From Kiritimatiellia bacterium (GTDB lineage: Bacteria; Verrucomicrobiota; Kiritimatiellia; CAIQIC01; Lenti-01), in assembly GCA_028681135.1 (NCBI GenBank), contig JAQUJC010000004.1:8107-72106 (forward strand): 64,000 bases of DNA, written 5' to 3'. This document shows positions 20,201 through 40,898 of this stretch, piece by piece. Position 1 is the first letter of the stretch. Every line of letters begins with the position of its first letter. The translations under genes were made by a program, and so were the position numbers. The notes under the pieces are model-generated. The model had not been told where the DNA came from. It did not search any database and saw only the letters and a list, made by a program, of their open reading frames with translations.

Positions 20201-22268
20201 AAAAGGCGAATGGATCGTAACCGCCGAGGGGCTGGCCAGGGACCCATTCGGTGTAGCGCCAGTGGTGAACGGCTCCAGACAGATACTCCTGATAATTGAC
20301 CAATCCGTCTTCATCATAGTCGCGGGCGGCATCCTTGACCGTACCATCCATGCCATTGCGCAGATTCTGGTCCGCCAGATCATAGATACGCGAACGGTGC
20401 GCTGTAATCGCTTCCCAGTGGTCGGGAATGGCATCGCCGTCGGTATCGACGGAAGTGGGATTCAATCCGCCGCCGACATAGCAGCTTCCGTTCCATTCCA
20501 CGGTTCCTCCGGCATACTTCAAGACCGCCAAACCGCCGGACACATCTTCGCCCTCCACGACGTCCAAATCCTTGTATCCGCCTTCGGCGCCGTCCACCAC
20601 GCTATCGCCGTCGGTGTCGTCCACGTTGGGATCGGTGGGCCACACCTTGTTGAGCCAAGCGGGATCGAAATGGGTGCGGCCGTTCGGCCACGACGCACCC
20701 CGAATCAGATTGATGTCGTACGCACTGAATTCCATGAAATTGTTCAAGCCATCGTTATCCCCATCCTCCTGGGCGTCGTCCTTGTTCAGGGGATCCAGAC
20801 CCACATAGAGTTCCCACCCGTCGAAAATTCCGTCGCCATCCGAGTCGATAATCATGGGATCCAAGGCATAGCTGTTGAAATTATCGCAGTCCAGCACGCC
20901 CTTAATGAACCCAAGGTACAGCGACGCCAAGAACTTTTCACGACTGGTGAAGGGAATGGTGTTCTCCTGCCCCTTGAGTTCCCGGGTGCTTCCTTTCCCT
21001 AGATAGTTTTCGCCCCACGCGGTGCGCGGATCATACCCCAGGTCGGCATAGACTTGGCCGTGGCGACGTTCTGCCCCGGCACCATCGTCGGTATAGGCCA
21101 TGTAATCATCGGACGGACTACCACCCGCATCCTCCGGGTCAATGGGGTTGAGTCCCTTCCGGATTTCATAGCCATCGGACATTTCATCTGCGTCGGTGTC
21201 CCAATGGAAGGGATCGGTGCCTGCGATGAATTCATCCAAGAAGAAAGCACAATCGGCGTCGAGGTCACCGCTGGCATCGACAGTCAGTTCCGCGCCAAAA
21301 ATCGCCAGCATGTCATTCGCGGGAATGGGCAACACCGGAATATCCCAGTTCACCGTGGGATCAAACGAGGCCAAGTCCAAGGCGACGCCCTCAAAGGGGG
21401 GCGTGGGCACATTCACCAGCGTGCCATAGAAATAGTATTTCCAGCCATCGGATATTCCATCGCCCGCAGTGCTGATCAGAGTGGGATCGGTACCCGGATC
21501 GTCATTGATCCCGGTCAGCGAATTCAGCCCATACCAGCCATCGAACCCGCGCGCCTGGAACCAGTTATTAAACGGGATCACGCCGATATAATACTGGGGC
21601 GGACGCACGCCCGTGGTTGGGAAACGATAGGGCCAATCGGTGTTCAGACCCGCCAGTGCGGCAGGATAATTTCCCGACGAGAATACATTCATCGCACCGG
21701 GTTCCCACCCGCCTGGCATTTTGTCATCCGTCGGATTGCCAGTTGCGCCATTGTCACCCGTCGGATCTTCCGGGTCCAATCCATACGTGACTTCCCATAC
21801 ATCGGGCAGACCGTCCAGGTCCAGGTCTCCCACCCCCTCACCGGCTTGATACTCATGGCTTAAGAGCAGCTCGATTTCCTTGTCTTCCCCACCTACACTT
21901 AGCGTGATTGATACGGGATGGGGTGGTTTTCTATCTACGTATGATTCGGGGACATCACCTAGCCATTTGTATACAAAGCTATCCCGCCCACCCACCGGCA
22001 CAGGGTTCGCAGTGATTTTCAACACGGCATTGCTGGGCACCGACATAAATGCAGGATTTCCCGTCATCGTAGGGCCAGCCGGGAGTAGCTGCTCAATGGT
22101 AATCGTCCCCCCACCTAGTCCCGTCAACCCTTCATAATAATCCAGGGCGCTGACAACAATCACATTGTCTTGGGCAACGGCCACAGAGCCCACCAGAAGC
22201 GTGCCCGCTAAAACACCCAACAAACAAAAATGGAATGACTTCTTCATTTTATTCTCCTGCTTCGCCAA
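14223..22268 (-). CDS. Giant secreted protein (2681 aa). It contains multiple LamG/concanavalin-A-like domains, many thrombospondin-type-3-like Ca-binding Asp-rich repeats, and a C-terminal ~60-aa module shared with the downstream giant paralog.
   Basis: There is an N-terminal signal peptide (MKKSFHFCLLGVLAGTLLVGSVAVAQ). Repeated DxDxDGxxDxxE motifs occur (DSDGDGIFDGWE, DTDGDAIPDHWE, DGDNDGLNNFMEF). LamG-type signatures are present (FTVEAWVKP, WTIEALVRPAA, WTLEAWVKTTS). The C-terminus reads ...YEVLGLMPKVVVVQSATNLAPGGWKEE...GVYTNTVSPAPGRGTKFFRIRYVE. Confidence 0.8.
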   Translation of the reverse strand: MAKQENKMKKSFHFCLLGVLAGTLLVGSVAVAQDNVIVVSALDYYEGLTGLGGGTITIEQLLPAGPTMTGNPAFMSVPSNAVLKITANPVPVGGRDSFVYKWLGDVPESYVDRKPPHPVSITLSVGGEDKEIELLLSHEYQAGEGVGDLDLDGLPDVWEVTYGLDPEDPTGDNGATGNPTDDKMPGGWEPGAMNVFSSGNYPAALAGLNTDWPYRFPTTGVRPPQYYIGVIPFNNWFQARGFDGWYGLNSLTGINDDPGTDPTLISTAGDGISDGWKYYFYGTLVNVPTPPFEGVALDLASFDPTVNWDIPVLPIPANDMLAIFGAELTVDASGDLDADCAFFLDEFIAGTDPFHWDTDADEMSDGYEIRKGLNPIDPEDAGGSPSDDYMAYTDDGAGAERRHGQVYADLGYDPRTAWGENYLGKGSTRELKGQENTIPFTSREKFLASLYLGFIKGVLDCDNFNSYALDPMIIDSDGDGIFDGWELYVGLDPLNKDDAQEDGDNDGLNNFMEFSAYDINLIRGASWPNGRTHFDPAWLNKVWPTDPNVDDTDGDSVVDGAEGGYKDLDVVEGEDVSGGLAVLKYAGGTVEWNGSCYVGGGLNPTSVDTDGDAIPDHWEAITAHRSRIYDLADQNLRNGMDGTVKDAARDYDEDGLVNYQEYLSGAVHHWRYTEWVPGQPLGGYDPFAFFTGTPFAWDWHLNVNTVPFFFIPPVNSRYTSTNPRLLDTDLDGMDDYWEIYHGLNPMFGVLDVHNSMVLGATVLAGMPPTFDIRVAPYVAGSPFADPDQDGLPNWEESLQPNAPPPKYYHTDPSPSWITDPSYQSSFVNLYYDLGSLALLAPGWYYGPSGWTPPSYLFSFENSEGFDTDADMLGDRAELVDSQASPGSTDPLSSEAPPRRRALYLNGDAAARTRGSFLHGLNDLTEFTVEAWVKPVEPASGALQVVVERPVWIPDGNVMSFPEGIRRNFRLAIDADGRPLVSYTGAGFDGLEYQDVIAKSIHPLEADRWQHLSGVYDGAQKKLFLYVNGEMRASIASAERPANGWSTPDPIYLDVNPGFTFDAPLVVGAADRNPVGRVNGQPVWVGSQAGTTFTAPDLHSFLVGWVDEVRIWNGAKTMTEVQRDMSRKLRMADVKTYQRPLLSTNATPELKYLYNFDNLLDPSSEGILPVGFDLLNGRPNDGSYPHVPWWGTAADRSLVYNNYLYVPWIVNLVARLPLDPPADSPYHTSTYSLADNTLTRSFPNTANPYNLGYYHANFYRMERHPDVYPVARAFDPATQSPLFNDLLPLRFARIDSVVELWDGAGPGTNTVYDSNGDGIPDWWYQQYGYDPLGDSIANLDPNGNGINNYWSYRLGVDPFNEFSLDPAGIISDADWDSDGDDLSNYDELNIYFTDPTRMDTDDDEINDGDEVRGVDNRESDPRRSYSPMIFRALRFGDGGGVGQVVVSDKIGLEETERHSLTNWTIEALVRPAAYPATRVSLVSRQVQATGRINYELGLTTNAMPYVRFQSGAGGVIKEIVGLTPLALSEWTHVAARFDLATGVLSLFVDGKRNNYGPATLVPAQGPGDLVFGGNGYVGDLKEIRVWAISRSDAEIAAFKGRNLFLGYGALDPAVLRTTGGNDHLRQNCLTADPVTGITIDSLDTWTLEAWVKTTSQSPGTIIARWNTGTDLGGEDFNYYLGMQSDGTLIGRWVLAYTKEEEGEEGVIDESEVILNPTVNNIVGAMPINDGEWHHVAYVRDANKAALYVDGIIDAVQDPTLVPLGEKIVNWGVRSLAGPLSIGHQLAADADEVRVWNRGLSRGELNLYNKQSLYGNEPGLITYFNFDFQRSELAEDRAIVKDNAEEPGVYIFPAMRMETGDYPSILTDPIQIYRLALAGYYPADDGGFTLEDYQNPLDWDYAGQMISDVQFVELDPAEYPFQEDNNYDGIPNWWDILNGMDPDGNSSPGDEVGYVYDPADFTFGAWGDPDHDGLNNWAELQAGTDPNRFDSDGDGRGDYDSPTTGATYGTLHTDTDKMPDAWESIFPLACSPRRYDPNLDPDNDGWDNLSEYLGTGVDYSYQAVSNWIASNQTWDVQWEIVDRTIVSPTRPDDGKSFPLPQFKFNFYGQALEYVVATEFEISDDGYLEPDAVALIVWAFSDLEMQAPDAQVLIPVQSVFESGTMATVTEWSIGHVHKGPNIFMAFIDMNADGKWNAGEWLGFSESGIEDIQLGAVNIKIPLTDKPAGYIRFSWEQQMGAIQEAIAHVAGTTYRVAIKALSEAGKPIIYSTTRNLESLGRPNIMEMDLKLGGIEPMYGSYEWTVGTVDGVVFASGTNAIAYPSSLAKPVVEYPTGNLIFAREKLRMKLDPNTTRIQIQIQNAATGQTVLNTTQYRPYVNLDGNAEIDLPLLAGFGALTNGQYRIQVRAYNPRASVTSDWVNFAVSFKPPAKGGAAMIKGRIYYYGWESNAQIVAEAYSGNGVLIKALAIPRSGYWEYSLMGVEIGDFHVRAFYDRNNNGVLDEGENWGLVKGSRDDRTVDTPTIYSVDYAEKRIKIRNLAEYSGNDLVIYDADTDNDGIVDSYEYRYAGNLTTMNGQSNLSGDGWKDIDNFAQGRDPTQTYPAPLAIPKLTVGPLVKSGEQLLLTYEVLGLMPKVVVVQSATNLAPGGWKEEFRAAVTQPGVYTNTVSPAPGRGTKFFRIRYVE

Positions 22269-22327: not shown

Positions 22328-22888
22328 CTACTCGCGCCCCATTTCTTGACTGCTGCTCCCGGACCCAGAGGCCCCTTCACTCAATAAAGCCCTGATTTGC
22401 TCCATCAAATCGGCACGCCGGCTGCCAAGGGCTCGATATTCTTCTGACTCATTCAGCAGCGTGAGGCGGGCGACCACCTTCATTTTTCGCTGCTCGCGCA
22501 ATTCCGATATCTGAGCGTTCCATTCATCGGACTTTGCAGGCGTTTGCTCCAATTGCTCAATCAAATCTCCAATCTGCCGACTGATTTGCTTGATTTCAGC
22601 CGTCAGCTCCTTAAGCGGTCCCGCTTGCGCCGCTTGGGTCTCAAACTGATGCATTTCTCGTTTGTTTTGCATGAATTCTGTACGTAATTCCGCCATACCG
22701 GATTGCGCGACTTGCTCCGTTATCACGACCACCGCCTCAGCAGCGGCAGGTTCCGTCGCCGAAATGTCGCCAAAAGCCCCCCGGGGAAATACAGCCAACA
22801 CCACCGTCAGTGCCATCCCCATGGCACTCAGCAAGACACGCCAGGGGGCTACGCCCAACTGCGTGGTGTAAGTAATTGCCTCAATCAT
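22328..22888 (-). CDS. Small signal-anchored coiled-coil protein (186 aa), encoded immediately upstream of giant protein 1.
   Basis: An N-terminal hydrophobic segment (VLLSAMGMALTVVLAVFP) is followed by ~130 aa of heptad-like Glu/Gln/Arg/Leu-rich sequence. It has the same architecture as the ORF 31911..32489. Confidence 0.65.
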   Translation of the reverse strand: MIEAITYTTQLGVAPWRVLLSAMGMALTVVLAVFPRGAFGDISATEPAAAEAVVVITEQVAQSGMAELRTEFMQNKREMHQFETQAAQAGPLKELTAEIKQISRQIGDLIEQLEQTPAKSDEWNAQISELREQRKMKVVARLTLLNESEEYRALGSRRADLMEQIRALLSEGASGSGSSSQEMGRE

Positions 22889-22983: not shown

Positions 22984-25900
22984 TCATGGAATCCTGACCG
23001 GACGGAAGAACTGGAGAGGCTCGTCCATGGTGTTGGTATAGCCCATCACCCCGTCCACCGTCGCTGTGAAGACCGCTCCCGGCACAGCACCCCACTCCCC
23101 GGAAGGTAAATTTGAGGAAGACTGCACGGTATAGATTGCGCCAGCCCTTCCCAGCCATCTGACCGAGAAGGGAGTGCTGGACGACACATTTGCCACGAAC
23201 GGACCGACGGCCGGATCCGTGGGATCACCGCTGTGCGCCACTTCCTGGCCGTCATCCCAGCCATCGCCGTCCGTATCCGGATTCTGCGGATCGGTCTGGA
23301 GGCGGAATTCGCCAATATTCAAGAGCCCATCGCCATCGTCATCCAGCAGGGCATCGAGCGGGTTGGTAGGATCCAATCCATTGAGCACTTCCCACGCATC
23401 GTCCATGCCATCACCATCGCCGTCCACGGTCGCCTCCAATTTCTGCAAGCGATTATTCCACGTGTCCGCCACAATGATCGAGGACGACATCAAGGACGGT
23501 GCCGCATCATGGGGAAAGCTGACCTGTCCATCGCCGCCCCCTTGCTGTCCCAAACTTCCCACATGGGCTCTGGACGAGTCCAGCACCTGAATCCGGTGGT
23601 TGGAAGTGTCCGCCACAAAGAGACGATTACCCAAGCCGATCTGAATGCTCATGGGTTTGTTGAACTGCCCCGCACCGGTACCAAACGAGCCGGTCTTCCA
23701 TAGGAATGTGCCGCCGCTCGTAAAGCCTTGTAAGCGGTTGTTTTCGGTGTCCGCCACATAGACAATTCCGTGCTCGTCCACCGTGATCCCCTGGGGAGAG
23801 TTCATCTGACCATTGGCGGTTCCAAAGACACCGAAGGAGAACAACTGGACGCCATTCGGGTCGAAGACCTGAACGCGGTGGTTGTCCTTGTCCGCGACGT
23901 AGAACCGCCCCAACGGCCCAATGGCCACATCACGCGGATTATTGAACTGGCCCACCGCGGACCCGTACGACCCGAATTGGCGTTCAAAGACCACCGCCCC
24001 GGTCGTCGGATTGAAGGTGAACACCTGAATGCGGTGATTGGCCGAATCAGCCACGGCGAAACGGTCGGCATTCGGCGCCTTGCCCAAGCCGTAGGGCGTG
24101 GCGAACTGGCCCGCGTTCGTGCCATCCGAGCCGTAGGTTAGCACATGGGTGAGCGTCGTGCGGTCCCAAACCGAAACCCGGTTGTTCTGGCGGTCCAGCA
24201 CAAATACAAATTGATTGGTCAGGAACAAGCGCGTCGGAAAATGGAATTGGTTGGTCTCGCTGCCAATTGTTCCTGCCACCTGCTCTAGGGTCCACTCCGC
24301 TTCCAAGGGGACAATCGGCGCGCGTGGATCCATCCCGTTCAGAATGCAGTAGCCGTCGGGAATGGAATCGCCATTACTATCCCGCACCGTGGCAAGGGAA
24401 CCGGGGTATCCCAATACTTGGTCGACCACCCACGTTCCAAAATCGTGGGTCTCGTTCGCGGATAGATCCAGCGCATATACCCCCGAGTCGCCATACGCCA
24501 CGGAACCCTCGAATGTCGCCGCATCCCAGGCGCGGACATAGACGTTGCGGACCGGGGTGGTTTCCATAAAGTCGTGATGGAAAATTTCATCAAATCGACC
24601 CAGTTCGGGCAACCATTCATAACCCACGCCGATCCGTCCATGATTCTTATTGAAGGGGAAGGTGAACAGCACGGTGTCATCGCCCGTGGTGCTGCCATCC
24701 GAAGCGGGCAGATTGACAACTCCATCGGGACCGGCGTACACGAGCTGGAATAGGCTGGCTTCGGCCCCACCCGTTCCCGACAGGAACTGGTTCATCCAGT
24801 TCTTCACGCCTGTGCTGGATTGTACACGCAGGGTGGGTTGAACCACATTGAAGGTAACCGGAATCGCTTGAACAACCGCCCCGGGATAATTGCCGCGAAT
24901 GATGAGCACCGCCTCGTGGAGGCCAATCGTCAGGCCCGCCGATTCAGCCTTGAGTGTGACCGGCAGCTCGCTGTTGTCCACACTGGCGCTGACGGGCGAG
25001 GCATTCAACCACGGGACCGCCTCCAGCAACTCGTTTTCGACCAGCCCCCGCAAGACATCCTGCCAGGCACCCCTGGTTTGCCATTCGGCGGCATCCTGGT
25101 TTCCGTTCCAAAGAATCACCACGCCGCCGGTGCCGGTTTCGCGGCGCATCAGCTTGCTGGCCCCTTCCACCCCGAAGTACACCGCCGGAGCTTCATTGGT
25201 ATCGACCGTGGCTTCATCATAGGCCATGGAGGTGACCGCCACATGATCACCGGGCTGAATGTCGACCCAGAACGGGTCGATCGGCAGCGCCTGGACCAGT
25301 TCCGCCATGTCTTCCGCCTCCGGCGCGCGGTCCAGCGAGTCGGACCCGACCAGATCGCGCAGACGCCGATCATCCGGACGGGACAATACATGGGCACCGA
25401 CCACGATGAGCTTGCCGCCCTGATTCAGATAGGTCTGGAGCAGCGATTCTTCGGCCACCGACAGCAAGCGGCCCGTGCCAGCGGTTCCGCCCAGATCCAG
25501 AATCACGAGATCCTGCGGCAAAATAGCCTCCGGATCAGTGCTATGCCTTCCTGTCAGCACGCCCTCCACTGTGACCAGATTGTTGGACCACATCGATACG
25601 GTCCAGCCCGCTTGCTCCAGCACCGGCTGGACGAGTGCCAAGGCATTCCGGTCGGAAATCAAGGCAATCTTGCGCGGTTGGGCGGTGAGGATATCGAACT
25701 CAAATTCATCAACAGACAGATTGGAAAACAGCAGTGTTTGTTCCTGATCCTGTCCGGCCTGGGCCGCAAATACCATCTGCGTGGCCCCAAAGGCGATTTC
25801 GGGACGGCGCAAAGAGAAGTCTGCGATTTGGTTGCCGCCGACAAGGGTCCGAATGGTCGCCGGCGGGGTTTCGTGACTTTCGCCCAGTACGCGGAACCGA

Positions 25901-28900
25901 TAAGTACCGTCTTCCAATCCGTCGATGCGATAGGATCCATTGCTTTCCGTCAGGACTCGGCCACTGGATGCCCCCCAGTATTCAACCGTCAAGCCGGCCA
26001 GGCCGGCCGCTGTCAGCGCATCGCGCACCGTTCCGGAAATGGTCTGTCGCGGGGCCACCGGAAGGGTGAACGGCAAGACTCCATTCGCCAGAGTCAGGGT
26101 GAAATCCACGTCGCCGGTTGCATTCGGCAGGGTAACGCGGAAGCCCGCGAGGTTGACCTGCTGGTCGCCGCTGGAAATGCCCGGCCAGGTGGCCGTTCCC
26201 TGCACGATGGTCACGCCCGGCGTGGTGCTGGTCAGTGTGCCGGTCGGACTCATATAGAGAGCTGAGCCATCGTTGAGCAGACGAATGAACAGGTCCACGG
26301 TCTCGGCGGGTTCGGCGTGGCGGTCGCCGTCGCCGGTCGCCTGATCATCCACTGCGACGTCCGTAATCACAGGAACTGGGGCCGGGGCCACGTTCACGGT
26401 CACCGGAATCGACAGCTCATTGGCTCCGCCGCGCACGACGATATGGGCGATATAGCTCCCAGCGGGCAGTTGACCGCCCGCGTTGATGGTGACGCCGACC
26501 GAGAGCGTATCCAGCGACACGATGTTGGCTCTGTGGGTATCCACCTGTAGCCAGAATGCCTGGATGTGTTCCAGCGCTGCCGCCGCATCCAAATGGCCCG
26601 CCGAGGACACCACGCCTTCCAGGACGGGGTCGCGGCGTGCGCCCAGCATGATGGCGTCGCGCAGCATGTCATAGGTCGCCCAGGGTGCCACGGATTTCAA
26701 CAGGCCCGCCACGCCGGCGACATGAGGGGCGGCCATCGATGTGCCGCTGAGTCGCTCGTAGGCATCAAGCGTTCCGTACATATAGGTGCTGAGGATATCC
26801 ACGCCCGGCGCGGCAATATCCACGGACTGCGCGCCGTAGTTGGAGAAGTCAGCCAAGGCTCCATCATGGTCCGTGGCTGCCACGGAAATGATGTTGTCGA
26901 GATTGTACGAGGCCGGATACGACCGGTACGGCTGATCGTCGTCGTTGTTCACCGCCTCGTTGCCCGCGGCAGCAACGAACAGATGCTCGTTCGCCATGGC
27001 GTATTCGATCATTTCATATTCCACTCCGCTGAAATAGTAACCCCCGTAACTGTGATTGCTGATTTTCACGCCGTTGTCGACGGCATATTCCAAGGCGGCC
27101 AGAATGGCGTCGGAGGACAGCACGGCCTCTTCGATGCCCAACTCATTCACCCCCACGGTCGCCACCTTCAACGGCATGATTTTGGAATGCCAATTGACGC
27201 CCGCCACCCCGATGCCGTTGCCGCCGGAGGCCCCCACCGTACCCGCCACATGGGTGCCGTGCTCGACGCCAGCCACCGGGTCAGGCGACGGATCGGGGTC
27301 GTCATCGCCGAAATCGTAGCCGGCAACCAGATTGTCTGCCAGATCGACATGGTCGAGTTTCACGCCGGTATCCATCACCGCAATGACCACATTGGTGTTG
27401 CCCACCGTGGTGTCCCAGGCTTCCTGAGCCCGGATATCCTCCGCGAGGGTTCCACCCGTCTGGCGGGTGTTGTCCAGTCCGTACATCTGCGAATAGAGCG
27501 CATCGTTGGGCACGGCGAACACCTCCCGCCGATAGTTAGGCTCCACGTAGCGAATGGCGGCATCCGTCGTGAGCGTGTTCGCCACCCATTCCATGGATAG
27601 ATTGCCAGGAACCCGGACGTGCGCAGCCGACACCCCGTGGTAGCGGCGCAGAACCTGGCCGCCCACCGCGGCCAACGCGCTCGCCTGCGCTTGAATAGCG
27701 GAGCCATCTTCAAACCGAACGAGCAGCTCCTGCTCCACCGCCTCGGAGGGCAGCGCGGTCCAATCGATCTCCGGCAGATCCAAGCTCCCAATTCGGTCAT
27801 GGGGAACACCCTGTACCAATTCCAATCCGATTTCGACAAATCCAGCGTAGGGGCCGTCATTGGTGAGGTCCAACGTCAGATTAGTTTCCACGCCCTCCGG
27901 CAGATTAACAACGATGTTGGTAGGCAGGGCGGAAATGCCCCATGCCGCCACCTCAAAGTCCACATTTTCAGCATTGGCGGAGGCAATCACCACGTTCGAC
28001 GAGGGCGGCGCGCCATAGGGCGCGGGCGGCAGCACATAGACGTCGTAGGTGTTGTTGGTCAGGCCAAACAGGCTGTAGTCGCCCGCGGCATCGGTGAGGG
28101 TCTGCACAGTACCTCGGTCGCTGACGGCCTTGACGACCGCGCCTTCCACAGGATCGGTGGTGTCCAGGTCGGTGACCTGTCCGGAGATGGCGTAGCGTAC
28201 CGTCACCGTCAGATCAAAGGTATGGGTGGTGACCCGGGCATCCGCATCGGTGACCTCTAGTGAAAACGGCAGTACATCGCCCTCCCCGGCCAGCGGATCG
28301 ATCTGGATCTGAGGATATTCCGCCAACGGCGGATCCAGCACTGGGCCTTCCACGCCGCCGGGCAGGACATGGGCCCAGGACGCATTGGGTTGCGTCACCG
28401 TTGTGGCATCAGCCCCCGTATAGCTGAGGACTCCTTCCAGCGACAACGCCAAAAGACTGCCCGAATTACCCAGCATGATATCCATATCTACGGCTTCGCC
28501 CGGTTCTGCAAAGGCGTCGCCATCGCCGCCGGTGACTCGCACGCCATACACGTACAGAGTGGGGCTCGCCATTACGGTCAAACTTGCTGGAATCAAAATA
28601 TCCTCGCCGCCCGCGTCATTGCTCATCAAACGGATAACGGCTTCATAGGGCTGCTCCGAGGCGGCCAGCGCCGAGGCATCGGCGGTCAGGGCAACCGGCG
28701 CACCCGCGCCGACGGGAACCACGCCTGCGGACGGATCCGTCGTCAGCCAGATGGGGACTTCCGTCATGGCCGGATGTGCCGCAACGTCCACCACGATCTC
28801 GTATGACAAAGGCAGGTCCCCCGCCGCATTATCCAGACTCAGAGTGTCCAGCGCGCTTTCGCCTTCGTTCACTTCCCACTCATATATCAACGGAGCCGCA

Positions 28901-31900
28901 TTGGCCCAGGCTGTCCCCAAGCCGAAGTTGGCCATGGATGGCCCCGTCGCCGTGATTACGTCGCTGGGTGAATACTCGCCAGGCTTTAGCGCCTGAATAT
29001 CGTAGGCCACACCGGGAACCAGGCCATGCAACCCGTAGGAGCCATCGGCTTCAGATGTCGCCATGACATCCGGATACCCCGACGCCTGCCCGCGAATCAA
29101 GGCCTCTTCGATGGGTGCGCCGGTGAACAGATTGGTCACGAGACCATATACGCTTTCCCGCGTCGCGATTTCCAGGGTCAACATATCGGGATACGGCCCC
29201 AGACCGCCATCGGCGGTGGCGCTGTGGAAAACAGTGAAAGGCGTTTCCTGGGGAATATCCACCTCCGTCGACAGCGCCAATTGCGTCCCGCTCAAGGCCG
29301 AATCCCCTGGTTGCAGATCCCCGTAGAGAACATACGAAGTCGCAGGCGTCAAGGTCACCTCGGGCGTCGGCACGGTGACCGATGCCTGCACGTTGCTGAA
29401 GATCTGGGTCTGCATGGAATTGAAGACTTCCAAATTTAAGAAAAAGCTCTCACCTGGTTCGGCATGCCCATCGCCGTCCCCGCCGGCTGCGTCATCGATC
29501 TCATAACCGATGATATTGATGCCCGGCGGCAACACATTGGAGATGCGGACATCGTCAATATACCAGCCCGCCGCCACACCCTCATCGCCGGACTCAATAC
29601 GGAACCGCACCCGGATCGTTTGATTGGCGAACCCGGGCAGGTCGAGGCTCACCGCCTGCCAGCCCGCAGAGGAGCCGGTGACCAGCTCCGTGACGTTGAC
29701 CCAACCGGAGCCCCCGTTGACCTCGATGACGCCAAAATCGCTTTCCGCAAACTGATGCCACGACTGGAACTCAAGGCGGGGGCTCAACTTGACGGCCACC
29801 GGCGTGCTGACCAGCGATGCCAGGGCCAGAAGCGGATAATTGCCATCCAGAACGGTGCCCCAGAGCCGTTCGCCCGAGGTGGCGCCCGGAGGACCGTAGG
29901 ACGGCATGCCGTATTCCCAGCAGGTCACGTCGTTCAGGTTGGTGAACGTCCAACCGGCTTCGCCCGATTCCATGTCGTTTTCATAGACCGTGCGGCGGAC
30001 GGGGGTGATGAAGGTCAAGTAGTCCTCTTCGTTCGTGGAGGTCAGATCCGTCGGCGCCGAGGCCTTGTTCCCCGCGTAGTCCTCTGACAAAACGGCCATG
30101 ACGTATTTCGTCGAGCCTTCCACCGGGACCGTCACCGTATGCACGTATTGCGTCGTGGCGCCGATCACGGTCGGTGTGCTGACATAGGTGCCGCCGCCGA
30201 TTTCCGGCAGCAGCGCATCCAGCCCCCCGGGCGGAATTTCTGTCGTGAGGATGTAGCGGGAATCCGCCGGCTCATCCGTCGACCAGCCGACCGTCGCAAA
30301 ATCCTCCGCCACGTCCACCATCTGCACGTCGCTGATGACCGGCGGTGTATCGTCGATCAGGACTGAAATAGAGGCCGTTTTGAGACTCGGACTTTCATAG
30401 GTGACGGTCAGGGTGTCGTCCTCCACCGCCGTTGTGCCGCTGACCAGGTCAAACGAATTCGTGAATGTGGTTTCATCGACGCCGACCGTCAACAACGTCT
30501 CCGTGCTGGCCCACCGCACGACATCCAAGGGGTCCACGACTTCCACGGCCACGTCCACATCCGTCGGCAGAGGAGCAATCAACGTGGGGTCGTTCACCGT
30601 GACCTCGACCGTGGCGTCCGAACGATAAGCCTGGCGATCCAACGTGAGTTGCGGCCCCAGAGCAGCGATCGCGGCAAACAGGTCCAGTTCGCCGCCGGTG
30701 ACGGACTTGCCATCCAATGCCGGATTGGGCGCCACACTCTCCAAAATCGCGTCCCGGATCTCCTGATAGGTATAATCCGGATTGAGACTCCACAACAAGG
30801 CCGCCGCGCCCGCCACGTGCGGGCAGGCCATGGAGGTTCCTTGATACGAATCAAACTGATCGCCGGCCCCGCCGGGGACCGTGCTCAGAATATCCACGCC
30901 CGGCGCCGCCAAATCCACGCTTTCAAGCCCATAATTGGAAAATTCGGCCAGCGAACCGCCTTCCGCGATAGCCGCCACCGAGATGATGTTAGGCAAGTCG
31001 TAGCTGGCCGGATAGGCCGGGGTTTCGTCGTTGTCGTCACCCACTCCGTCAAAACCGCCGTTGCCCGCCGCCGCAATAAATAGCTGCCCGTACGTCTCCC
31101 CGGCCACTTTGATGGCATCATACAAGCCCTGGCTGGCACCGCCACCGCCCCAACTGTTGTTGGTGATCTTGATCTTCAGGGCCGTGTTGGTGGCCGCGTA
31201 TTCCACCGCGCGAATGGCATCGTCCGTACTGCCGTACGGATCCAGGAACTTCAGGCTGATCATCTTGACGTTCCAGTTCACGCCGACCACGCCGAACGTG
31301 TTGTTGCCGACCGCGCCAATGGTGCCGGCCACATGCGTGCCATGTCCGGCGTTATCCCGTTGATCAGCGGTGTTGTTGGCGAAATCATAGCTGCCCGGCG
31401 CGATATTGGCAGAAAGATCCTGATGCGTGGTAAGAATGCCCGTATCGATGACCCCGACGACAATCTCTGGGCTGCCAACGGAGATATCCCACGCTTCGGG
31501 CGCGCGGATGCGATCCATACCCCACAAATCGCCATCGACATAGGAAGGATCATCCGGGGTCGTCGCGTAGGCCCGCACGATGTAGTTGGGCTCGACATAC
31601 GCCACCGCCGGATGGGCCATGTATTGTTTGGCCACCTGGGCCATTGAAAGCCGCTGCGACAGCTTCACGTGGACAACCGGGGTGATCGAAAACTGCCCGA
31701 TCACCTGTGCGCCAAGCTGTTGATGAAGGGCATGGATGCTGGCCGCTGCCACACCCGGCTTGAAGCCGATCAGCAATTCGCCCGGGACATAGTCCTCGGT
31801 GAAAACCGGGCGGTTCCAATCCACCCCCGCTGGAGGGGCGGCCCACCCCATGCTGGCCATGAATAGGCTGCCCAGGAGCAGCCAAAATCCGCAACGTGCT

Positions 31901-31914
31901 CGATTGGTTTTCAT
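22984..31914 (-). CDS. Giant secreted multidomain protein (2976 aa). It has two complete inhibitor-I9 + subtilisin (S8) protease units, CARDB-like and carboxypeptidase-regulatory-like beta-sandwich domains, a six-repeat NHL beta-propeller, thrombospondin-type-3-like repeats, and the shared C-terminal module.
   Basis: A signal peptide is present. S8 unit 1 has the catalytic residues in VGVIDTG, HGTHVAG and GTSMACPHVAG, around nt 31530-30650. S8 unit 2 has them in IAVMDTG, HGTHVAGTVGA and SGTSMAAPHVAG, around nt 27560-26500. Both units are preceded by an I9-like propeptide. NHL repeats (NHRIQVF, NHRVQVFDPNG, NNRLQGF, NHRIQVLD, NNRLQKLE) lie around nt 24050-23270. Asp-rich repeats follow (DGDGDGMDDAWE, DDDGDGLLN, DTDGDGWDDGQE). 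The C-terminus reads ...YTVQSSSNLPSGEWGAV...GYTNTMDEPLQFFRPVRIP. Confidence 0.85.
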   Translation of the reverse strand: MKTNRARCGFWLLLGSLFMASMGWAAPPAGVDWNRPVFTEDYVPGELLIGFKPGVAAASIHALHQQLGAQVIGQFSITPVVHVKLSQRLSMAQVAKQYMAHPAVAYVEPNYIVRAYATTPDDPSYVDGDLWGMDRIRAPEAWDISVGSPEIVVGVIDTGILTTHQDLSANIAPGSYDFANNTADQRDNAGHGTHVAGTIGAVGNNTFGVVGVNWNVKMISLKFLDPYGSTDDAIRAVEYAATNTALKIKITNNSWGGGGASQGLYDAIKVAGETYGQLFIAAAGNGGFDGVGDDNDETPAYPASYDLPNIISVAAIAEGGSLAEFSNYGLESVDLAAPGVDILSTVPGGAGDQFDSYQGTSMACPHVAGAAALLWSLNPDYTYQEIRDAILESVAPNPALDGKSVTGGELDLFAAIAALGPQLTLDRQAYRSDATVEVTVNDPTLIAPLPTDVDVAVEVVDPLDVVRWASTETLLTVGVDETTFTNSFDLVSGTTAVEDDTLTVTYESPSLKTASISVLIDDTPPVISDVQMVDVAEDFATVGWSTDEPADSRYILTTEIPPGGLDALLPEIGGGTYVSTPTVIGATTQYVHTVTVPVEGSTKYVMAVLSEDYAGNKASAPTDLTSTNEEDYLTFITPVRRTVYENDMESGEAGWTFTNLNDVTCWEYGMPSYGPPGATSGERLWGTVLDGNYPLLALASLVSTPVAVKLSPRLEFQSWHQFAESDFGVIEVNGGSGWVNVTELVTGSSAGWQAVSLDLPGFANQTIRVRFRIESGDEGVAAGWYIDDVRISNVLPPGINIIGYEIDDAAGGDGDGHAEPGESFFLNLEVFNSMQTQIFSNVQASVTVPTPEVTLTPATSYVLYGDLQPGDSALSGTQLALSTEVDIPQETPFTVFHSATADGGLGPYPDMLTLEIATRESVYGLVTNLFTGAPIEEALIRGQASGYPDVMATSEADGSYGLHGLVPGVAYDIQALKPGEYSPSDVITATGPSMANFGLGTAWANAAPLIYEWEVNEGESALDTLSLDNAAGDLPLSYEIVVDVAAHPAMTEVPIWLTTDPSAGVVPVGAGAPVALTADASALAASEQPYEAVIRLMSNDAGGEDILIPASLTVMASPTLYVYGVRVTGGDGDAFAEPGEAVDMDIMLGNSGSLLALSLEGVLSYTGADATTVTQPNASWAHVLPGGVEGPVLDPPLAEYPQIQIDPLAGEGDVLPFSLEVTDADARVTTHTFDLTVTVRYAISGQVTDLDTTDPVEGAVVKAVSDRGTVQTLTDAAGDYSLFGLTNNTYDVYVLPPAPYGAPPSSNVVIASANAENVDFEVAAWGISALPTNIVVNLPEGVETNLTLDLTNDGPYAGFVEIGLELVQGVPHDRIGSLDLPEIDWTALPSEAVEQELLVRFEDGSAIQAQASALAAVGGQVLRRYHGVSAAHVRVPGNLSMEWVANTLTTDAAIRYVEPNYRREVFAVPNDALYSQMYGLDNTRQTGGTLAEDIRAQEAWDTTVGNTNVVIAVMDTGVKLDHVDLADNLVAGYDFGDDDPDPSPDPVAGVEHGTHVAGTVGASGGNGIGVAGVNWHSKIMPLKVATVGVNELGIEEAVLSSDAILAALEYAVDNGVKISNHSYGGYYFSGVEYEMIEYAMANEHLFVAAAGNEAVNNDDDQPYRSYPASYNLDNIISVAATDHDGALADFSNYGAQSVDIAAPGVDILSTYMYGTLDAYERLSGTSMAAPHVAGVAGLLKSVAPWATYDMLRDAIMLGARRDPVLEGVVSSAGHLDAAAALEHIQAFWLQVDTHRANIVSLDTLSVGVTINAGGQLPAGSYIAHIVVRGGANELSIPVTVNVAPAPVPVITDVAVDDQATGDGDRHAEPAETVDLFIRLLNDGSALYMSPTGTLTSTTPGVTIVQGTATWPGISSGDQQVNLAGFRVTLPNATGDVDFTLTLANGVLPFTLPVAPRQTISGTVRDALTAAGLAGLTVEYWGASSGRVLTESNGSYRIDGLEDGTYRFRVLGESHETPPATIRTLVGGNQIADFSLRRPEIAFGATQMVFAAQAGQDQEQTLLFSNLSVDEFEFDILTAQPRKIALISDRNALALVQPVLEQAGWTVSMWSNNLVTVEGVLTGRHSTDPEAILPQDLVILDLGGTAGTGRLLSVAEESLLQTYLNQGGKLIVVGAHVLSRPDDRRLRDLVGSDSLDRAPEAEDMAELVQALPIDPFWVDIQPGDHVAVTSMAYDEATVDTNEAPAVYFGVEGASKLMRRETGTGGVVILWNGNQDAAEWQTRGAWQDVLRGLVENELLEAVPWLNASPVSASVDNSELPVTLKAESAGLTIGLHEAVLIIRGNYPGAVVQAIPVTFNVVQPTLRVQSSTGVKNWMNQFLSGTGGAEASLFQLVYAGPDGVVNLPASDGSTTGDDTVLFTFPFNKNHGRIGVGYEWLPELGRFDEIFHHDFMETTPVRNVYVRAWDAATFEGSVAYGDSGVYALDLSANETHDFGTWVVDQVLGYPGSLATVRDSNGDSIPDGYCILNGMDPRAPIVPLEAEWTLEQVAGTIGSETNQFHFPTRLFLTNQFVFVLDRQNNRVSVWDRTTLTHVLTYGSDGTNAGQFATPYGLGKAPNADRFAVADSANHRIQVFTFNPTTGAVVFERQFGSYGSAVGQFNNPRDVAIGPLGRFYVADKDNHRVQVFDPNGVQLFSFGVFGTANGQMNSPQGITVDEHGIVYVADTENNRLQGFTSGGTFLWKTGSFGTGAGQFNKPMSIQIGLGNRLFVADTSNHRIQVLDSSRAHVGSLGQQGGGDGQVSFPHDAAPSLMSSSIIVADTWNNRLQKLEATVDGDGDGMDDAWEVLNGLDPTNPLDALLDDDGDGLLNIGEFRLQTDPQNPDTDGDGWDDGQEVAHSGDPTDPAVGPFVANVSSSTPFSVRWLGRAGAIYTVQSSSNLPSGEWGAVPGAVFTATVDGVMGYTNTMDEPLQFFRPVRIP

Positions 31915-32489
31915 AATTGATCGGACTCCTCCGCCGAGCGGGTCGCACCCGCTTCCTCGAGTTCAGGCGCGGCATCCTCGGCCATGTCCGCCTGTTTCTT
32001 TTCCAACGCCTGCAGTTCAAGCTGGACCCGGACCCGGTCGTTGGCCAGTTTCATGGTCTCGCGCCTGATCTCACTTGAACGCCCGACAACGACGGTTTGT
32101 CGGGAGGTGAACGCCACATAATTGGTATGTTCTGACATGCGTTGCGCCAGTGCTTCTTGCTGGGCATGCAAATCGCGCTGCATCGCTTCGATTTGCTCCA
32201 CCATTTCCCGTAATTCTTCGTCGGTATCCAATAGGTGCTGGCGAAGTTCAAACTGTTCGCGCTGTGCCTCGCGCGCCTGCGTCATCAACCCCTTTTTTTC
32301 GTCGTCAAGCACAGCCATCTGGCTATCAATCCGCTCGACCCGATTCCGAGCCTCGTGAATCTGTTCTTCCAATTCTTCCGCCGTTGGCATGAACGCCCCA
32401 GTCTGAGTTTCGTTCGCCAAGCCTACGAACGGAAATACTGCGATCAAGACCGCAAGAAAAGCAACTGAATAGACACGGCAAAACAACAT
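31911..32489 (-). CDS. Small signal-anchored coiled-coil protein (192 aa). It is translationally coupled to giant protein 2 by a 4-nt overlap.
   Basis: A preferred start gives MLFCRVYSVAFLAVLIAVFPFVGLANE..., a signal or TM segment followed by a long coiled coil (EELEEQIHEARNRVERIDSQMAVLDDEKKGLMTQAREAQREQFELRQ...). The stop overlaps the ATG of the giant gene. The architecture is paralogous to 22328..22888. Confidence 0.65.
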   Translation of the reverse strand: MLFCRVYSVAFLAVLIAVFPFVGLANETQTGAFMPTAEELEEQIHEARNRVERIDSQMAVLDDEKKGLMTQAREAQREQFELRQHLLDTDEELREMVEQIEAMQRDLHAQQEALAQRMSEHTNYVAFTSRQTVVVGRSSEIRRETMKLANDRVRVQLELQALEKKQADMAEDAAPELEEAGATRSAEESDQL

Positions 32490-32806
32490 GCTTAACCTCT
32501 CCTTCTCGATGCGCCACAAAATGGGCCCAGTCAGCCCAATCCTGCAGAAAGTGCGGGTTCTTTTGCATGGCCTACGCACAACCCGCACCTGCTTTATTCA
32601 TCATGCGTTGTTCCTTCACTGCCAAGAGATAGGCCTCATGCCCTATTTACGGTGAGTAGACCGCAAAAATGAGGGGCTGGCAATCAAAAAAATGCCGCAG
32701 CGCCTTGCGGAGCTTCTACGATTGGATAGAGGGGTCAGCGGAGACGCCGCCAGACAGCGGGGGCGATGGTTGGTAGAGCTAAAAATCGGCGATGCAGTTG
32801 CCGACG

Positions 32807-33691
32807 CTACACCGTATCCATGAAAGTCCGCTCCACGCGGTTAAAAACCGCCATGCCCAGCAGCAGCAGCAGCACCGTAAATCCCCCTGAATAGGCCAAA
32901 TAAGCCCACGAAAACACCCCCGTGCCGAAAAATCCGTAGCGGAACGTCTCGACAATGGCCGTCAGCGGATTGGCGGCAATGATCCAACGGTAGTGGTCTG
33001 GCATGGTCGACAGCGGATAAATCACCGGCGTGGCATACATCCATAACTGCACCCCGAAGCCCACCAACACTTGTAAATCACGGTATTTTGTCGTCAGCGA
33101 TGAAATAATCACCCCGAAGCCCAAGCCCAAGCCCGCCATCATCAGCAGCAGCAGCGGCAGCAGCCCCACCGCCCAATTGGGCTGAATTGGCGCGCCTTTT
33201 GCCCAAAACAGGCCATATACGAACAGAAAAAACGTAAATTGAATGGAAAAAGCGATCAATTGCGACATCACGACGGAAACCGGCACCACCATGCGCGGAA
33301 AATACACCTTCCCGAAAATTCCCGCGTTGGCAATAAAGGTGTTGGAGGTGCGCGTCAGACAGTTGGCAAAGTAGCTCCAGACCGTTGTCCCGGCCATATA
33401 AAAGACGAATTGCGGCACTTTGTCAGTCGGCAGCCCCGCAATGCGCCCAAACACCACCGTAAACATCAGCGTGGTCAGCAACGGTTGGATAATGTGCCAC
33501 AGGGGTCCCAGAATGGTCTGCTTGTACGACGCCACGAAATCGCGGCGCACAAACAGCCCCATCAGGTCGCGATAACGCCACAAATCCTTAAAATGCAGGT
33601 CAAACCAGCCCTTGGGCGGCTCGATGACCAAATCCCAACCGTTTGCGTCTGTCTGGAGTGCCATAGCCGGAAAATATCCCAAAGCCCCCAC
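32807..33691 (-). CDS. ABC-2 type polysaccharide/O-antigen export permease (Wzm/KpsM/TagG family). No cognate ATPase gene is adjacent.
   Basis: The 294-aa product has six predicted TM helices and the ABC-2 signature region (FVRRDFVASYKQTILGPLWHIIQPLLTTLMFTVVFGRIA). An alternative start is at 33664. Confidence 0.75.
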   Translation of the reverse strand: MGALGYFPAMALQTDANGWDLVIEPPKGWFDLHFKDLWRYRDLMGLFVRRDFVASYKQTILGPLWHIIQPLLTTLMFTVVFGRIAGLPTDKVPQFVFYMAGTTVWSYFANCLTRTSNTFIANAGIFGKVYFPRMVVPVSVVMSQLIAFSIQFTFFLFVYGLFWAKGAPIQPNWAVGLLPLLLLMMAGLGLGFGVIISSLTTKYRDLQVLVGFGVQLWMYATPVIYPLSTMPDHYRWIIAANPLTAIVETFRYGFFGTGVFSWAYLAYSGGFTVLLLLLGMAVFNRVERTFMDTV

Positions 33692-33721
33692 GGGAAGTCA
33701 ATCGCAGACGCCACAGCGCGA

Positions 33722-34214: not shown

Positions 34215-34322
34215 GTCCGCCCGTGGAGGAAATGGCATGGCTGGGCCCCCTTTGGAGAATGCATCTGGAAATCAGGAAAAGGAGACACAGTCGAGCGGCC
34301 ATTTTTTGAAAGGATTAACCGG

Positions 34323-35612: not shown

Positions 35613-35937
35613 GGCGGGATGTTTACCAAACTCGCGCCCCCCTGACCACGCGATTTTTGTAAGGGCTGGTGGTGGGTGGTCCGTGGTTTTGGAATTGCGC
35701 GCCCAATGACAACTTAGACAGTGTCCGCTCGAGCGGCCGGGCCCAGCGCAGACTGTTTGGAAATACACACGCAAAAACCAGGCTCTGCACGATAAAGTCG
35801 GCCTGGATCAGCATGCGCCATGCCCATGCCGGACACACTAGCCTGCATTATTCAGGCTAGGTGCGCCCCTGGGCGCGCCAGATCGGGGGCAAATCGTACA
35901 GCCGCCGCGCTCATCGAGCCCAGCACCATGGCCCGAA

Positions 35938-39619: not shown

Positions 39620-39662
39620 GCAGACAACATCTGGAACATTTGGAATTGCGTCAGAGGGATGT

Positions 39663-40892: not shown

Positions 40893-40898
40893 ATTGGC

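What the first reader, a model, noticed from the sequence alone, without database searches (positions are those of the whole stretch)
22984..31914. A single 2976-aa polypeptide with two complete I9-propeptide plus S8 subtilase units and a C-terminal NHL beta-propeller
Both subtilase units retain intact Asp-His-Ser triads (DTG, HGTHVAG and GTSM(A)(C/A)PHVAG). Each is preceded by its own inhibitor-I9-like propeptide, as if two pro-subtilases were fused. CARDB-like, carboxypeptidase-regulatory-like and amidotransferase-like modules sit between them. Six NHL repeats and Asp-rich Ca-binding repeats follow. Tandem active subtilases on one chain, plus a propeller for substrate or ligand binding, is an unusual organisation. 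It suggests a processive or dual-specificity surface protease, possibly one that matures the neighbouring giant paralog.
Basis: seen in the sequence. Interest (0 to 1): 0.5.

Follow-up and report, generated by a model that had tools for sequence, protein, structure and literature searches.

The report
Two-headed giant secreted subtilase, PVC bacteria
This gene really does encode one 2976-residue exported protein with two complete, apparently active subtilisin-type protease units; it belongs to a small, undescribed family in Kiritimatiellia and related bacteria whose members swap the first protease for other protease types and nearly always sit next to a giant lectin-like protein.

Summary
Window 22984..31914 (-) is one unbroken 2976-aa ORF. 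It has a signal peptide and two prodomain+S8 units, with Asp/His/Asn/Ser intact in both (D157/H191/N285/S361 and D1515/H1552/N1652/S1726). A six-bladed NHL propeller, TSP3-type Asp-rich repeats and a ~75-aa C-terminal domain follow.

- The prodomains match Pfam Fervidolysin_NPro-like, not I9.
- CARDB is not supported.
- The amidotransferase-like module lies after the second S8 and lacks any conserved Cys or His.
- The neighbour is not a protease paralog. It is a LamG/TSP3 giant that shares only TSP3 repeats and the C-terminal domain.

The gene is not an assembly chimera. More than 50 full-length homologs from independent assemblies keep both units, and 51 of 52 keep both sets of catalytic residues.

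Family-level findings:
- The N-terminal head is S8, M4, M36, C25 or C1 in two-headed members, and S8, M4, M6 or M36 in one-headed members. The internal pro-S8 is constant.
- A four-gene cassette (small coiled-coil protein, protease giant, small coiled-coil protein, LamG giant) recurs across PVC metagenome-assembled genomes (MAGs).

Best reading: an exported multi-zymogen that cuts itself at the internal prodomain junction and acts as a broad-specificity extracellular protease together with its LamG partner. Function is inferred, not shown. I class it as a new variant of a known kind, of moderate interest.

The parts
22984..31914 (-). Gene for the 2976-aa two-headed subtilase precursor
   Evidence: Single ORF. 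100% identical over 88% of its length to an NCBI record 'MAG: S8 family serine peptidase, partial [Kiritimatiellia bacterium]'.
31840..31914 (-). Sec-type signal peptide, aa 1-25 (MKTNRARCGFWLLLGSLFMASMGWA)
   Evidence: Read directly from the sequence: a basic n-region, a hydrophobic core and a small-residue cleavage site. No predictor was run.
31585..31803 (-). Prodomain 1, aa 38-110
   Evidence: Pfam PF22148 Fervidolysin_NPro-like, E 4.6e-18.
30655..31557 (-). S8 catalytic unit 1 (S8a), aa 120-420; D157, H191, N285, S361
   Evidence: Pfam PF00082, E 3e-58. Matches deseasin MCP-01 (3vv3) at E 1.4e-67. Catalytic residues.
29815..30654 (-). Beta-rich spacer L1, aa 421-700 (weak Big_3_4 match)
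   Evidence: Conserved across the family.
29515..29814 (-). MAM / Reelin-B / choice-of-anchor-J-like module, aa 701-800
   Evidence: Sub-threshold Pfam and NCBIfam matches. Present in one- and two-headed relatives.
29155..29514 (-). GDGDGxAEPGE beta-sandwich module 1, aa 801-920
   Evidence: Homologous to modules 2 and 3 (BLASTP E 1e-5 to 5e-10). No Pfam hit; CARDB not supported.
28960..29154 (-). CarboxypepD_reg-like domain 1, aa 921-985
   Evidence: Pfam PF13620, E 2.2e-5, below the gathering score.
28195..28584 (-). GDGDGxAEPGE module 2, aa 1111-1240
27952..28188 (-). CarboxypepD_reg domain 2, aa 1243-1321
   Evidence: Pfam PF13620, E 2.5e-10.
27511..27744 (-). Internal prodomain 2, aa 1391-1468. 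The predicted autocleavage junction is near ...VEPNYRREVFA|VPNDALY (aa ~1465-1468).
   Evidence: It is the second PF22148 stretch and aligns with prodomain 1. The junction is inferred from the first residues of the deseasin chain 3vv3, which align to VPNDALY. Cleavage itself is not shown.
26545..27510 (-). S8 catalytic unit 2 (S8b), aa 1469-1790; D1515, H1552, N1652, S1726
   Evidence: Pfam PF00082, E 7e-52. Matches 3vv3 at E 3.6e-47. Catalytic residues.
26050..26379 (-). GDGDGxAEPGE module 3, aa 1846-1955
25807..26043 (-). CarboxypepD_reg domain 3, aa 1958-2036
   Evidence: Pfam PF13620, E 3.7e-9.
25027..25671 (-). GATase1/ThuA-like alpha/beta domain, aa ~2082-2296; non-catalytic
24355..24846 (-). 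Family-signature 'X' beta-sandwich, aa 2357-2520
23425..24219 (-). Six-bladed NHL beta-propeller, aa 2566-2830
   Evidence: Pfam PF01436, E 8e-37. Blades listed.
23215..23424 (-). TSP3-type Asp-rich (Ca-binding type) repeats, aa 2831-2900
   Evidence: Pfam PF18884, 24.7 bits against a cut-off of 25. BLASTP matches to TSP3 regions of the neighbour.
22987..23214 (-). C-terminal ~75-aa domain ending FFRPVRIP, shared with the neighbouring giant protein
   Evidence: An HMM built from homolog C-termini hits this ORF (E 4e-28) and the neighbour's C-terminus (E 6.7e-5), and nothing else in the window. No Pfam or NCBIfam family.
31911..32489 (-). Upstream 192-aa signal-peptide + coiled-coil protein. 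Its stop overlaps the giant's ATG (ATGA).
   Evidence: 51% identical ortholog at the same position in L001. A similarly sized gene is called there in other loci.
22328..22888 (-). Downstream 186-aa signal/TM + coiled-coil protein
   Evidence: Positional ortholog in L001 (E 1e-14). A small ORF sits at this position in most loci.
14223..22268 (-). Giant LamG/TSP3 partner protein (2681 aa from TTG; more likely 2674 aa from the ATG at 22247, which has an AGGAG upstream)
   Evidence: Pfam Laminin_G_3 three times, E 1.7e-46. Shares the C-terminal domain. A giant LamG ORF follows the protease gene in about 21 of 24 informative loci.

Best explanation
The gene encodes a Sec-exported multi-zymogen. Each protease unit is made with its own fervidolysin-type prodomain.

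By analogy with all studied bacterial subtilases, each prodomain would fold its catalytic domain, be cut off autocatalytically at its C-terminal end, and then be degraded.

The second prodomain is internal (aa 1391-1468), so this step would split the chain near aa 1465-1468 into two pieces:
- an N-terminal piece: S8a plus beta-sandwich spacers;
- a C-terminal piece: S8b, GATase1-like domain, X domain, NHL propeller, TSP3 repeats and C-terminal domain.

The two pieces could stay together through the prodomain:S8b contact until the prodomain is destroyed, possibly by the head protease.

The mature product would be a broad-specificity extracellular or cell-surface protease. The non-catalytic GATase1-like, X, NHL and Ca-binding modules would hold it to a ligand or partner.

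It works as part of a conserved four-gene cassette with a giant LamG lectin-like protein that carries the same C-terminal domain. Each giant gene is preceded by a small exported coiled-coil protein, which may be a chaperone or anchor.

Shown:
- the domain anatomy;
- intact catalytic residues conserved in both units across the family;
- head swapping;
- the synteny.

Inferred:
- export route;
- autoprocessing and chain splitting;
- extracellular digestive role;
- cooperation with the LamG protein.
For: - Two S8 units with intact D/H/N/S residues. In 51 of 52 two-S8 homologs both units keep all four residues.
- The units are positional orthologs across the family, so the duplication is old and both copies were kept.
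- S8a, S8b and X are the most conserved segments.
- Both prodomains match PF22148 and align with each other. The 'VEPNY' end is conserved, and the start of the mature deseasin chain aligns just after it.
- Heads from six peptidase families sit on the same scaffold, all of them proteases with their own propeptides: S8, M4, M36, C25 and C1 in two-headed members; S8, M4, M6 and M36 in one-headed members.
- The cassette is conserved.
- The two giants share a C-terminal domain (also flagged on the LamG partners of L004 and L005).
- A signal peptide is present.
- The translationally coupled upstream gene and the flanking terminator-like sites fit one operon.
Against: - No experiment exists for any member.
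- Autocleavage at the internal junction is by analogy only.
- No cleavage-site motif was tested, and I could not inspect model coordinates.
- The secretion route and final location are unknown. The C-terminal domain matches no known sorting signal.
- Apparent 'S8b-only' half proteins lack signal peptides and are probably fragments, so they do not show that the halves can work apart.
- Terminator and promoter counts in the region are no higher than in shuffled sequence.
- Substrates are unknown.
Confidence: 0.5

Rival explanations
1. The chain stays intact. Two active subtilase sites tethered on one ~310-kDa surface polypeptide act together, processively or with dual specificity, on a substrate held by the NHL propeller.
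For: Both triads are intact and conserved. Long beta-sandwich spacers lie between the units. An NHL propeller and other binding-type modules are present.
Against: The second unit has a full, conserved prodomain directly in front of it. In studied subtilases that domain blocks the active site until it is cleaved off and degraded, which breaks the chain here. The S1-bottom residues are small in both units (Ala and Ser, read from the alignment), so there is no sign of distinct specificities.
Confidence: 0.2
2. The protein is a dedicated maturase that cuts the neighbouring giant LamG protein (or itself and that protein) into functional pieces. Digestion of outside substrates is not its role.
For: Tight, widely conserved linkage to the LamG giant gene. 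A C-terminal domain is shared, which suggests a common destination. Some LamG partners carry their own M10 or S8 domain.
Against: The head is exchangeable among serine, metallo- and cysteine peptidases with very different cleavage rules (S8, M4, M6, M36, C25, C1). That is hard to reconcile with cutting a conserved site in one partner. The neighbour is not a paralog.
Confidence: 0.15
3. It is mainly a structural or adhesive cell-surface protein (S-layer-like or fibre-like). The protease units serve only for self-processing during assembly.
For: Most of the mass is beta-sandwich, propeller and Ca-binding repeats. There is a weak NCBIfam match to an anammox S-layer glycoprotein over one CarboxypepD_reg domain. 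Exopolysaccharide and glycan genes lie next door.
Against: The catalytic domains are the most conserved parts. Heads are swapped for other complete proteases rather than lost. The S-layer match is far below its cut-off (29 against 1400 bits).
Confidence: 0.1
4. The two-unit gene is an artefact: a chimeric assembly or a fusion of two adjacent genes by a sequencing error.
For: None found.
Against: The same collinear architecture occurs in more than 50 full-length homologs at 36-87% identity. They come from ENA, JGI, NCBI and Logan assemblies, on contigs up to 309 kb. Base composition is even across the gene.
Confidence: 0.01

Closest known systems
Deseasin MCP-01 (Pseudoalteromonas sp., PDB 3vv3), an S8A subtilase
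   Same: It is the closest solved catalytic domain to both units (E 1.4e-67 and 3.6e-47). Same Asp-His-Ser order and motifs. The first residues of the solved chain align just after the target's internal prodomain.
   Different: The solved chain shows a single catalytic unit. The target has two units, lacks the long Asp-to-His insertion seen in 3vv3, and carries about 2000 residues of other modules.
Fervidolysin (Fervidobacterium pennivorans, PDB 1r6v)
   Same: The prodomain family is the same (PF22148). The layout is the same: prodomain, S8 domain, then beta-sandwich domains. The sequence match is E 2.3e-34 and runs from the prodomain end into the catalytic domain.
   Different: Fervidolysin is a 671-residue chain with one protease unit, against two units in a 2976-aa protein. 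It has no NHL, GATase1-like or X domain.
CspBA of Clostridioides difficile (two subtilase-like units on one chain)
   Same: Two S8-type units are translated as one polypeptide, and from my own knowledge the chain is later cut between them. NCBIfam NF040809 gives a weak match.
   Different: The score is 41 bits against a cut-off of 1250, so the target is not a member. From my own knowledge, CspA is a pseudoprotease, the protein acts inside spores, and it has no signal peptide. Here both units keep their catalytic residues and the protein is exported.
Gingipain polyproteins (RgpA/Kgp, peptidase C25) of Porphyromonas
   Same: From my own knowledge, these are large exported protease-plus-binding-domain precursors. 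They are processed into pieces that stay associated and are sorted by a C-terminal domain. Some family members here carry a C25 head on the same scaffold.
   Different: The target itself has no C25 domain. Its C-terminal domain matches no type IX secretion model.
Other multi-S8 giant proteins (for example a partial triple-S8 protein from Okeania sp., P0093, and P0083-P0097, P0107, P0119)
   Same: Several complete prodomain+S8 units with intact D/H/N/S on one chain.
   Different: The accessory domains differ (fibronectin-III, PKD and others). They have no GATase1-like, X, NHL or C-terminal core, and similarity is limited to the S8 units (13-20% query coverage).

Membership tests
Peptidase family S8, subfamily A (subtilisin type) | Catalytic Asp, His, Ser in that order, plus the oxyanion-hole Asn | tested here: met
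   Unit 1 has D157/H191/N285/S361 and unit 2 has D1515/H1552/N1652/S1726. Motifs DTG, HGTHVAG and GTSMA(C/A)PHVAG are visible.
Peptidase family S8, subfamily A (subtilisin type) | Significant match to the family profile above the curated threshold | tested here: met
   PF00082 scores 197.7 and 177 bits for the two fragments against a cut-off of 21.8.
Peptidase family S8, subfamily A (subtilisin type) | Proteolytic activity and autocatalytic prodomain removal | not testable with these tools
   Needs recombinant protein.
Inhibitor I9 propeptide (PF05922) | Match to the I9 profile | tested here: not met
   No PF05922 hit at E<=0.1. Both prodomains match the related PF22148 Fervidolysin_NPro-like instead, at 96 bits for the whole protein against a cut-off of 21.
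CARDB domain (PF07705) | Match to the CARDB profile | tested here: not met
   The three GDGDGxAEPGE modules have no Pfam hit even at E<=5. PF07705 appears only in the precomputed list of one distant homolog, P0051.
Class I glutamine amidotransferase | GATase1 alpha/beta fold | tested here: met
Class I glutamine amidotransferase | Catalytic Cys-His-Glu triad | tested here: not met
   No column with a conserved Cys anywhere, and no conserved His in the GATase-like part, in a 21-sequence family alignment.
NHL-repeat six-bladed beta-propeller | Six NHL repeats | tested here: met
   PF01436, E 8e-37. Five blades found by motif plus a first, degenerate blade at aa ~2566-2595.
Bacterial TSP3 (thrombospondin type 3-like) Ca-binding repeats | Match to PF18884 and Asp-rich DxDxDGxxDxxE motifs | tested here: inconclusive
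   24.7 bits against a cut-off of 25. The motifs are visible at aa 2833-2900. Ca binding was not tested.
CspBA germination protease (NF040809) | Score above the curated cut-off | tested here: not met
   41 bits against 1250.
Type VII secretion mycosin (TIGR03921) | Score above the curated cut-off | tested here: not met
   275 bits summed over two units against 278.75. No type VII secretion genes appear among the neighbouring genes scanned.
Known C-terminal sorting domains (type IX CTD, PEP-CTERM and others) | Match of the last ~75-110 residues to a curated sorting-signal model | tested here: not met
   No Pfam hit at E<=5. The only NCBIfam hit is to the TSP3 part.

The most novel reading that the evidence does not exclude
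The cassette (small coiled-coil protein, protease-headed X/NHL giant, small coiled-coil protein, LamG giant) is a so-far undescribed extracellular machine specific to the PVC superphylum. A modular carrier would present interchangeable protease 'warheads' from six peptidase families next to a giant lectin-like partner. Both giants would be routed or anchored through a shared, uncharacterised C-terminal domain and dedicated coiled-coil helpers. Its role might be attack on glycoprotein-rich substrates or on other cells.
Probability: 0.3. Interest if true: 0.7.

Novelty: new variant of a known kind. Interest (0 to 1): 0.5.

Why it matters
Kiritimatiellia, Lentisphaeria and their relatives are mostly uncultured degraders of complex glycans and glycoproteins, and how they handle the protein part of such substrates is unknown.

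This family shows a recurrent design. A fixed binding and anchoring scaffold carries one or two exchangeable protease zymogens and is always paired with a giant lectin-like protein. If the internal prodomain is cut as predicted, the gene is a bacterial protease polyprotein, with a possible built-in activation step in which the head destroys the inhibitor of the second unit.

The family also defines three uncharacterised modules: the X domain, the C-terminal domain and a triad-less GATase1-like domain. It offers a possible entry point for experiments if cultured Victivallis vadensis strains carry the member seen in a MAG assigned to that species.

Tried and rejected
1. Assembly chimera: rejected. 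The same architecture occurs in many independent assemblies.
2. Neighbour as a paralog: rejected. It has no S8 domain and shares only the TSP3 repeats and the C-terminal domain.
3. CARDB and I9 labels: not reproduced.
4. Active amidotransferase: rejected, because there is no conserved Cys or His.
5. Stand-alone 'pro2-S8b' half proteins as evidence for a fusion origin: dropped. P0081, P0085, P0088 and P0104 have no signal peptide and look like fragments.
7. Known sorting signal for the C-terminal domain, and a known family for the two small coiled-coil proteins: only noise-level coiled-coil matches.
8. Literature: four full-text searches and two papers read found no description of this architecture or cassette. 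The only related idea is that S8 domains may self-cleave giant Omnitrophota proteins.
10. Promoter and terminator scan: counts equal chance. Only the strong hairpin at 13113..13092 (-) is worth noting.

Full report

Yes. Window 22984..31914 on the minus strand is one ATG-to-stop ORF of 2976 aa, and base composition is even across it.

Pfam places the following domains:
- Two Peptidase_S8 domains, at aa ~150-394 and ~1507-1760. Fragment E-values are 3e-58 and 7e-52.
- A Fervidolysin_NPro-like prodomain in front of each, at aa 38-110 and ~1391-1460.
- Three CarboxypepD_reg-like domains.
- An NHL array (E 8e-37).
- A borderline TSP3_bac repeat.

The catalytic residues and oxyanion Asn are:
- Unit 1: D157, H191, N285, S361.
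- Unit 2: D1515, H1552, N1652, S1726.

These come, and the codons were re-read. The two units, prodomains included, are 43% identical to each other. Six NHL blades can be read in aa 2566-2830.

**2.

- The prodomains match PF22148 rather than Inhibitor_I9.
- No CARDB match appears even at E<=5.
- The amidotransferase-like module is not between the two proteases. It lies after the second one, at aa ~2082-2296.
  - Pfam finds nothing in aa 2080-2500.
  - An AlphaFold model of aa 2040-2560 built on 21 family sequences has pLDDT 90.
  - The family alignment has no conserved Cys, and no conserved His in that part, so it cannot be an amidotransferase.
- The last ~75 residues form a domain ending FFRPVRIP that matches nothing in Pfam or NCBIfam.

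**3. Not a chimera, and not alone**

A search of 5.8 billion proteins returned a 100%-identical partial NCBI entry, 'MAG: S8 family serine peptidase, partial [Kiritimatiellia bacterium]'. It also returned more than 50 full-length, collinear homologs of ~3000 aa at 36-87% identity, from ENA, JGI, NCBI and Logan assemblies.

Mapping sixteen segments of the target onto the best 120 hits shows one scaffold:

head, L1, MAM-like, L2, CarboxypepD_reg, prodomain+S8b, L4, CarboxypepD_reg, GATase1-like, X, NHL, TSP3, C-terminal domain.

Evidence that both protease units are maintained:
- In every two-S8 member but one, both units keep D/H/N/S. The exception is P0058, whose unit 2 reads D-Y-N-T.
- The target's first unit is closer to the N-terminal unit of all 52 two-S8 homologs. 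Its second unit is closer to their internal unit in 49 of 52. The duplication therefore predates the family's radiation, and both copies have been kept.
- Among 19 orthologs, S8a (78.6%), S8b (79.0%) and X (78.3%) are the most conserved segments. The C-terminal domain (52.6%) is the least conserved.

**4. The unexpected part: exchangeable heads**

On the same scaffold the N-terminal pro-S8 is replaced in some members by another protease:
- thermolysin-type M4 with its FTP propeptide (P0023, P0034, P0061);
- fungalysin M36 (P0037, P0064);
- gingipain-type C25 (P0040, P0042, P0049, P0063 and others);
- papain-type C1 (P0057).

Gene-level Pfam listings confirm the C25 and M4 heads.

Shorter one-headed relatives (~1650-2150 aa) have head, MAM-like, X, NHL, TSP3 and the C-terminal domain. 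Their heads are S8, M4, M6 or M36. Every head is a protease. The internal pro-S8b is constant in the two-headed forms.

A profile of the X domain finds 709 representatives at E<=1e-3, 228 at <=1e-10 and 106 at <=1e-30 among 1.84 billion cluster representatives. This is a small family.

In species-representative genomes, 22 of the 24 confirmed loci are titled as Verrucomicrobiota, Kiritimatiellia, Lentisphaerae, Victivallales, Spartobacteria or 'PVC group' MAGs, and two carry no phylum name. One is assigned to Victivallis vadensis.

**5. Genomic context**

- Upstream of the target is a 192-aa signal-peptide plus coiled-coil protein. Its stop overlaps the target's ATG (ATGA) and it has a GGAG ribosome-binding site.
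- Downstream come a 186-aa signal/TM plus coiled-coil protein, and then the 2681-aa ORF at 14223..22268.
- That ORF has three Laminin_G_3 domains and TSP3 repeats but no S8.
- It shares with the target only the TSP3 repeats and the C-terminal domain. An HMM of homolog C-termini hits exactly these two ORFs in the window, at E 4e-28 and 6.7e-5.
- The same order recurs around homologs at 71%, 47%, 43%, 41% and 38% identity, including M4- and C25-headed ones. Some LamG partners carry VWA, M10 or S8 domains.
- In my ORF scan, about 21 of the 24 loci with enough downstream sequence show the same small-ORF-then-LamG-giant order. This includes the one-headed relatives.
- The small proteins evolve fast but are positional orthologs.
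- A strong hairpin plus T-run at 13113..13092 (-) follows the next gene, a 326-aa lipoprotein-like ORF. Another terminator-like site at 32710..32695 (-) precedes the cassette. Overall terminator counts are no higher than in shuffled sequence.

**6. How it most likely works**

Shown:
- an exported precursor with two zymogen-type protease units, both under purifying selection;
- non-catalytic binding-type modules;
- a conserved partnership with a LamG giant.

Inferred from established subtilase biology:
- Each prodomain folds its catalytic domain, is cleaved at its own C-terminal end, and inhibits the enzyme until it is degraded.
- Prodomain 2 is internal, so this cleavage would cut the chain. 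The likely site is near ...VEPNYRREVFA|VPNDALY, because the first residues of the deseasin chain align there.
- The gene would then be a protease polyprotein giving two pieces: an S8a-plus-spacer piece, and an S8b/GATase1-like/X/NHL/TSP3/C-terminal piece.
- The head might remove the inhibitor of the second unit. This is speculation.

The heads come from peptidase families with very different cleavage rules. For that reason I favour broad extracellular proteolysis, of glycoprotein-rich material or surfaces held by the LamG partner, over site-specific maturation of the neighbour.

The export route is unknown. Kiritimatiella is reported to have Sec, Tat and type II secretion (PMC5148204).

Rivals are an uncleaved tethered dual protease, a dedicated maturase of the LamG protein, and a mainly structural surface protein. 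They are listed with their tests.

**7. Comparison with what is known**

- The catalytic units are ordinary S8A subtilases, closest to deseasin MCP-01 and, for the prodomain type, to fervidolysin.
- Two S8 units on one chain are known from CspBA of Clostridioides difficile (my own knowledge). The target fails that family's cut-off by a wide margin, and unlike CspBA it keeps both triads.
- Unrelated triple-S8 giants exist in other lineages, including a partial protein from the cyanobacterium Okeania (P0093).
- Four full-text searches and two papers found no description of this architecture or cassette. A preprint on giant Omnitrophota genes raises the general idea that S8 domains may self-cleave giant proteins.

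**8. Verdict**

The protein is a new architectural variant of a known enzyme kind. It belongs to a small, conserved and uncharacterised PVC family with exchangeable protease heads and a fixed LamG partner.

Interest is moderate (0.5). The single protein is not very surprising to a protease specialist. The head swapping and the conserved cassette are new leads and can be tested.

Noticed in passing
window 2970..8540 (-), junction at ~6447-6452: A bacterial alpha-2-macroglobulin is split into two ORFs by an in-frame TAA. ORF 6453..8540 has MG2 and MG3 domains. ORF 2970..6446 has MG5, MG6, the bait region, A2M and MG10, with an intact CLEQ thioester motif. The split could be a nonsense mutation, a pseudogene or a sequencing error. 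A PBP1C-type penicillin-binding protein (640..2973) follows directly, which is the classic A2M-PbpC pairing. This protease inhibitor gene lies about 15 kb from the giant protease.
   Followed up: partly
window 32807..45994 (mostly minus strand): A surface-glycan or exopolysaccharide gene cluster lies immediately upstream of the cassette. It includes an ABC-2 transporter, GT87, GT2 and GT4 glycosyltransferases, an AlgX-like SGNH domain plus MBOAT (an O-acetylation pair), a Wzy_C ligase/polymerase and an AMP-binding enzyme.
   Followed up: no
window 13134..14114 (-): A 326-aa Gly/Ser-rich ORF with a lipoprotein-type signal (…LGLMGC) has no Pfam hit. It sits just after the LamG giant and is followed by the strongest terminator-like hairpin in the region, at 13113..13092. 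It may be the last gene of the operon. It is not seen at this position in L004 or L005.
   Followed up: partly
P0058 (Lentisphaerae MAG; locus L018): This is the only two-S8 homolog among 52 whose second unit has lost catalytic residues (D-Y-N-T instead of D-H-N-S). It is a natural pseudoprotease variant of the internal unit.
   Followed up: no
P0202-P0235 and similar: Small proteins of 170-500 aa carry the X domain right after a probable signal peptide (profile E 1e-18 to 1e-24). The signature domain therefore also exists on its own.
   Followed up: no
P0083, P0086-P0097, P0107, P0119: Unrelated giant proteins of ~3000-4900 aa carry three complete S8 units, all with intact D/H/N/S. One is a partial protein from the cyanobacterium Okeania sp. 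Multi-subtilase chains have therefore arisen more than once.
   Followed up: partly
L004 1..38 and L005 2130..6630: A GspD-type secretin gene (L004) and three T2SS-E/MshE-type ATPase genes (L005) lie within 10 kb upstream of family members. This may be a hint about the export route. No such genes were found in the parts of the window that I scanned.
   Followed up: no
window 8920..11394 (+) and 53170..55407 (-): An 824-aa Ser/Thr protein kinase lies between the A2M genes and the cassette. Separately, a 745-aa ORF has no Pfam match.
   Followed up: no
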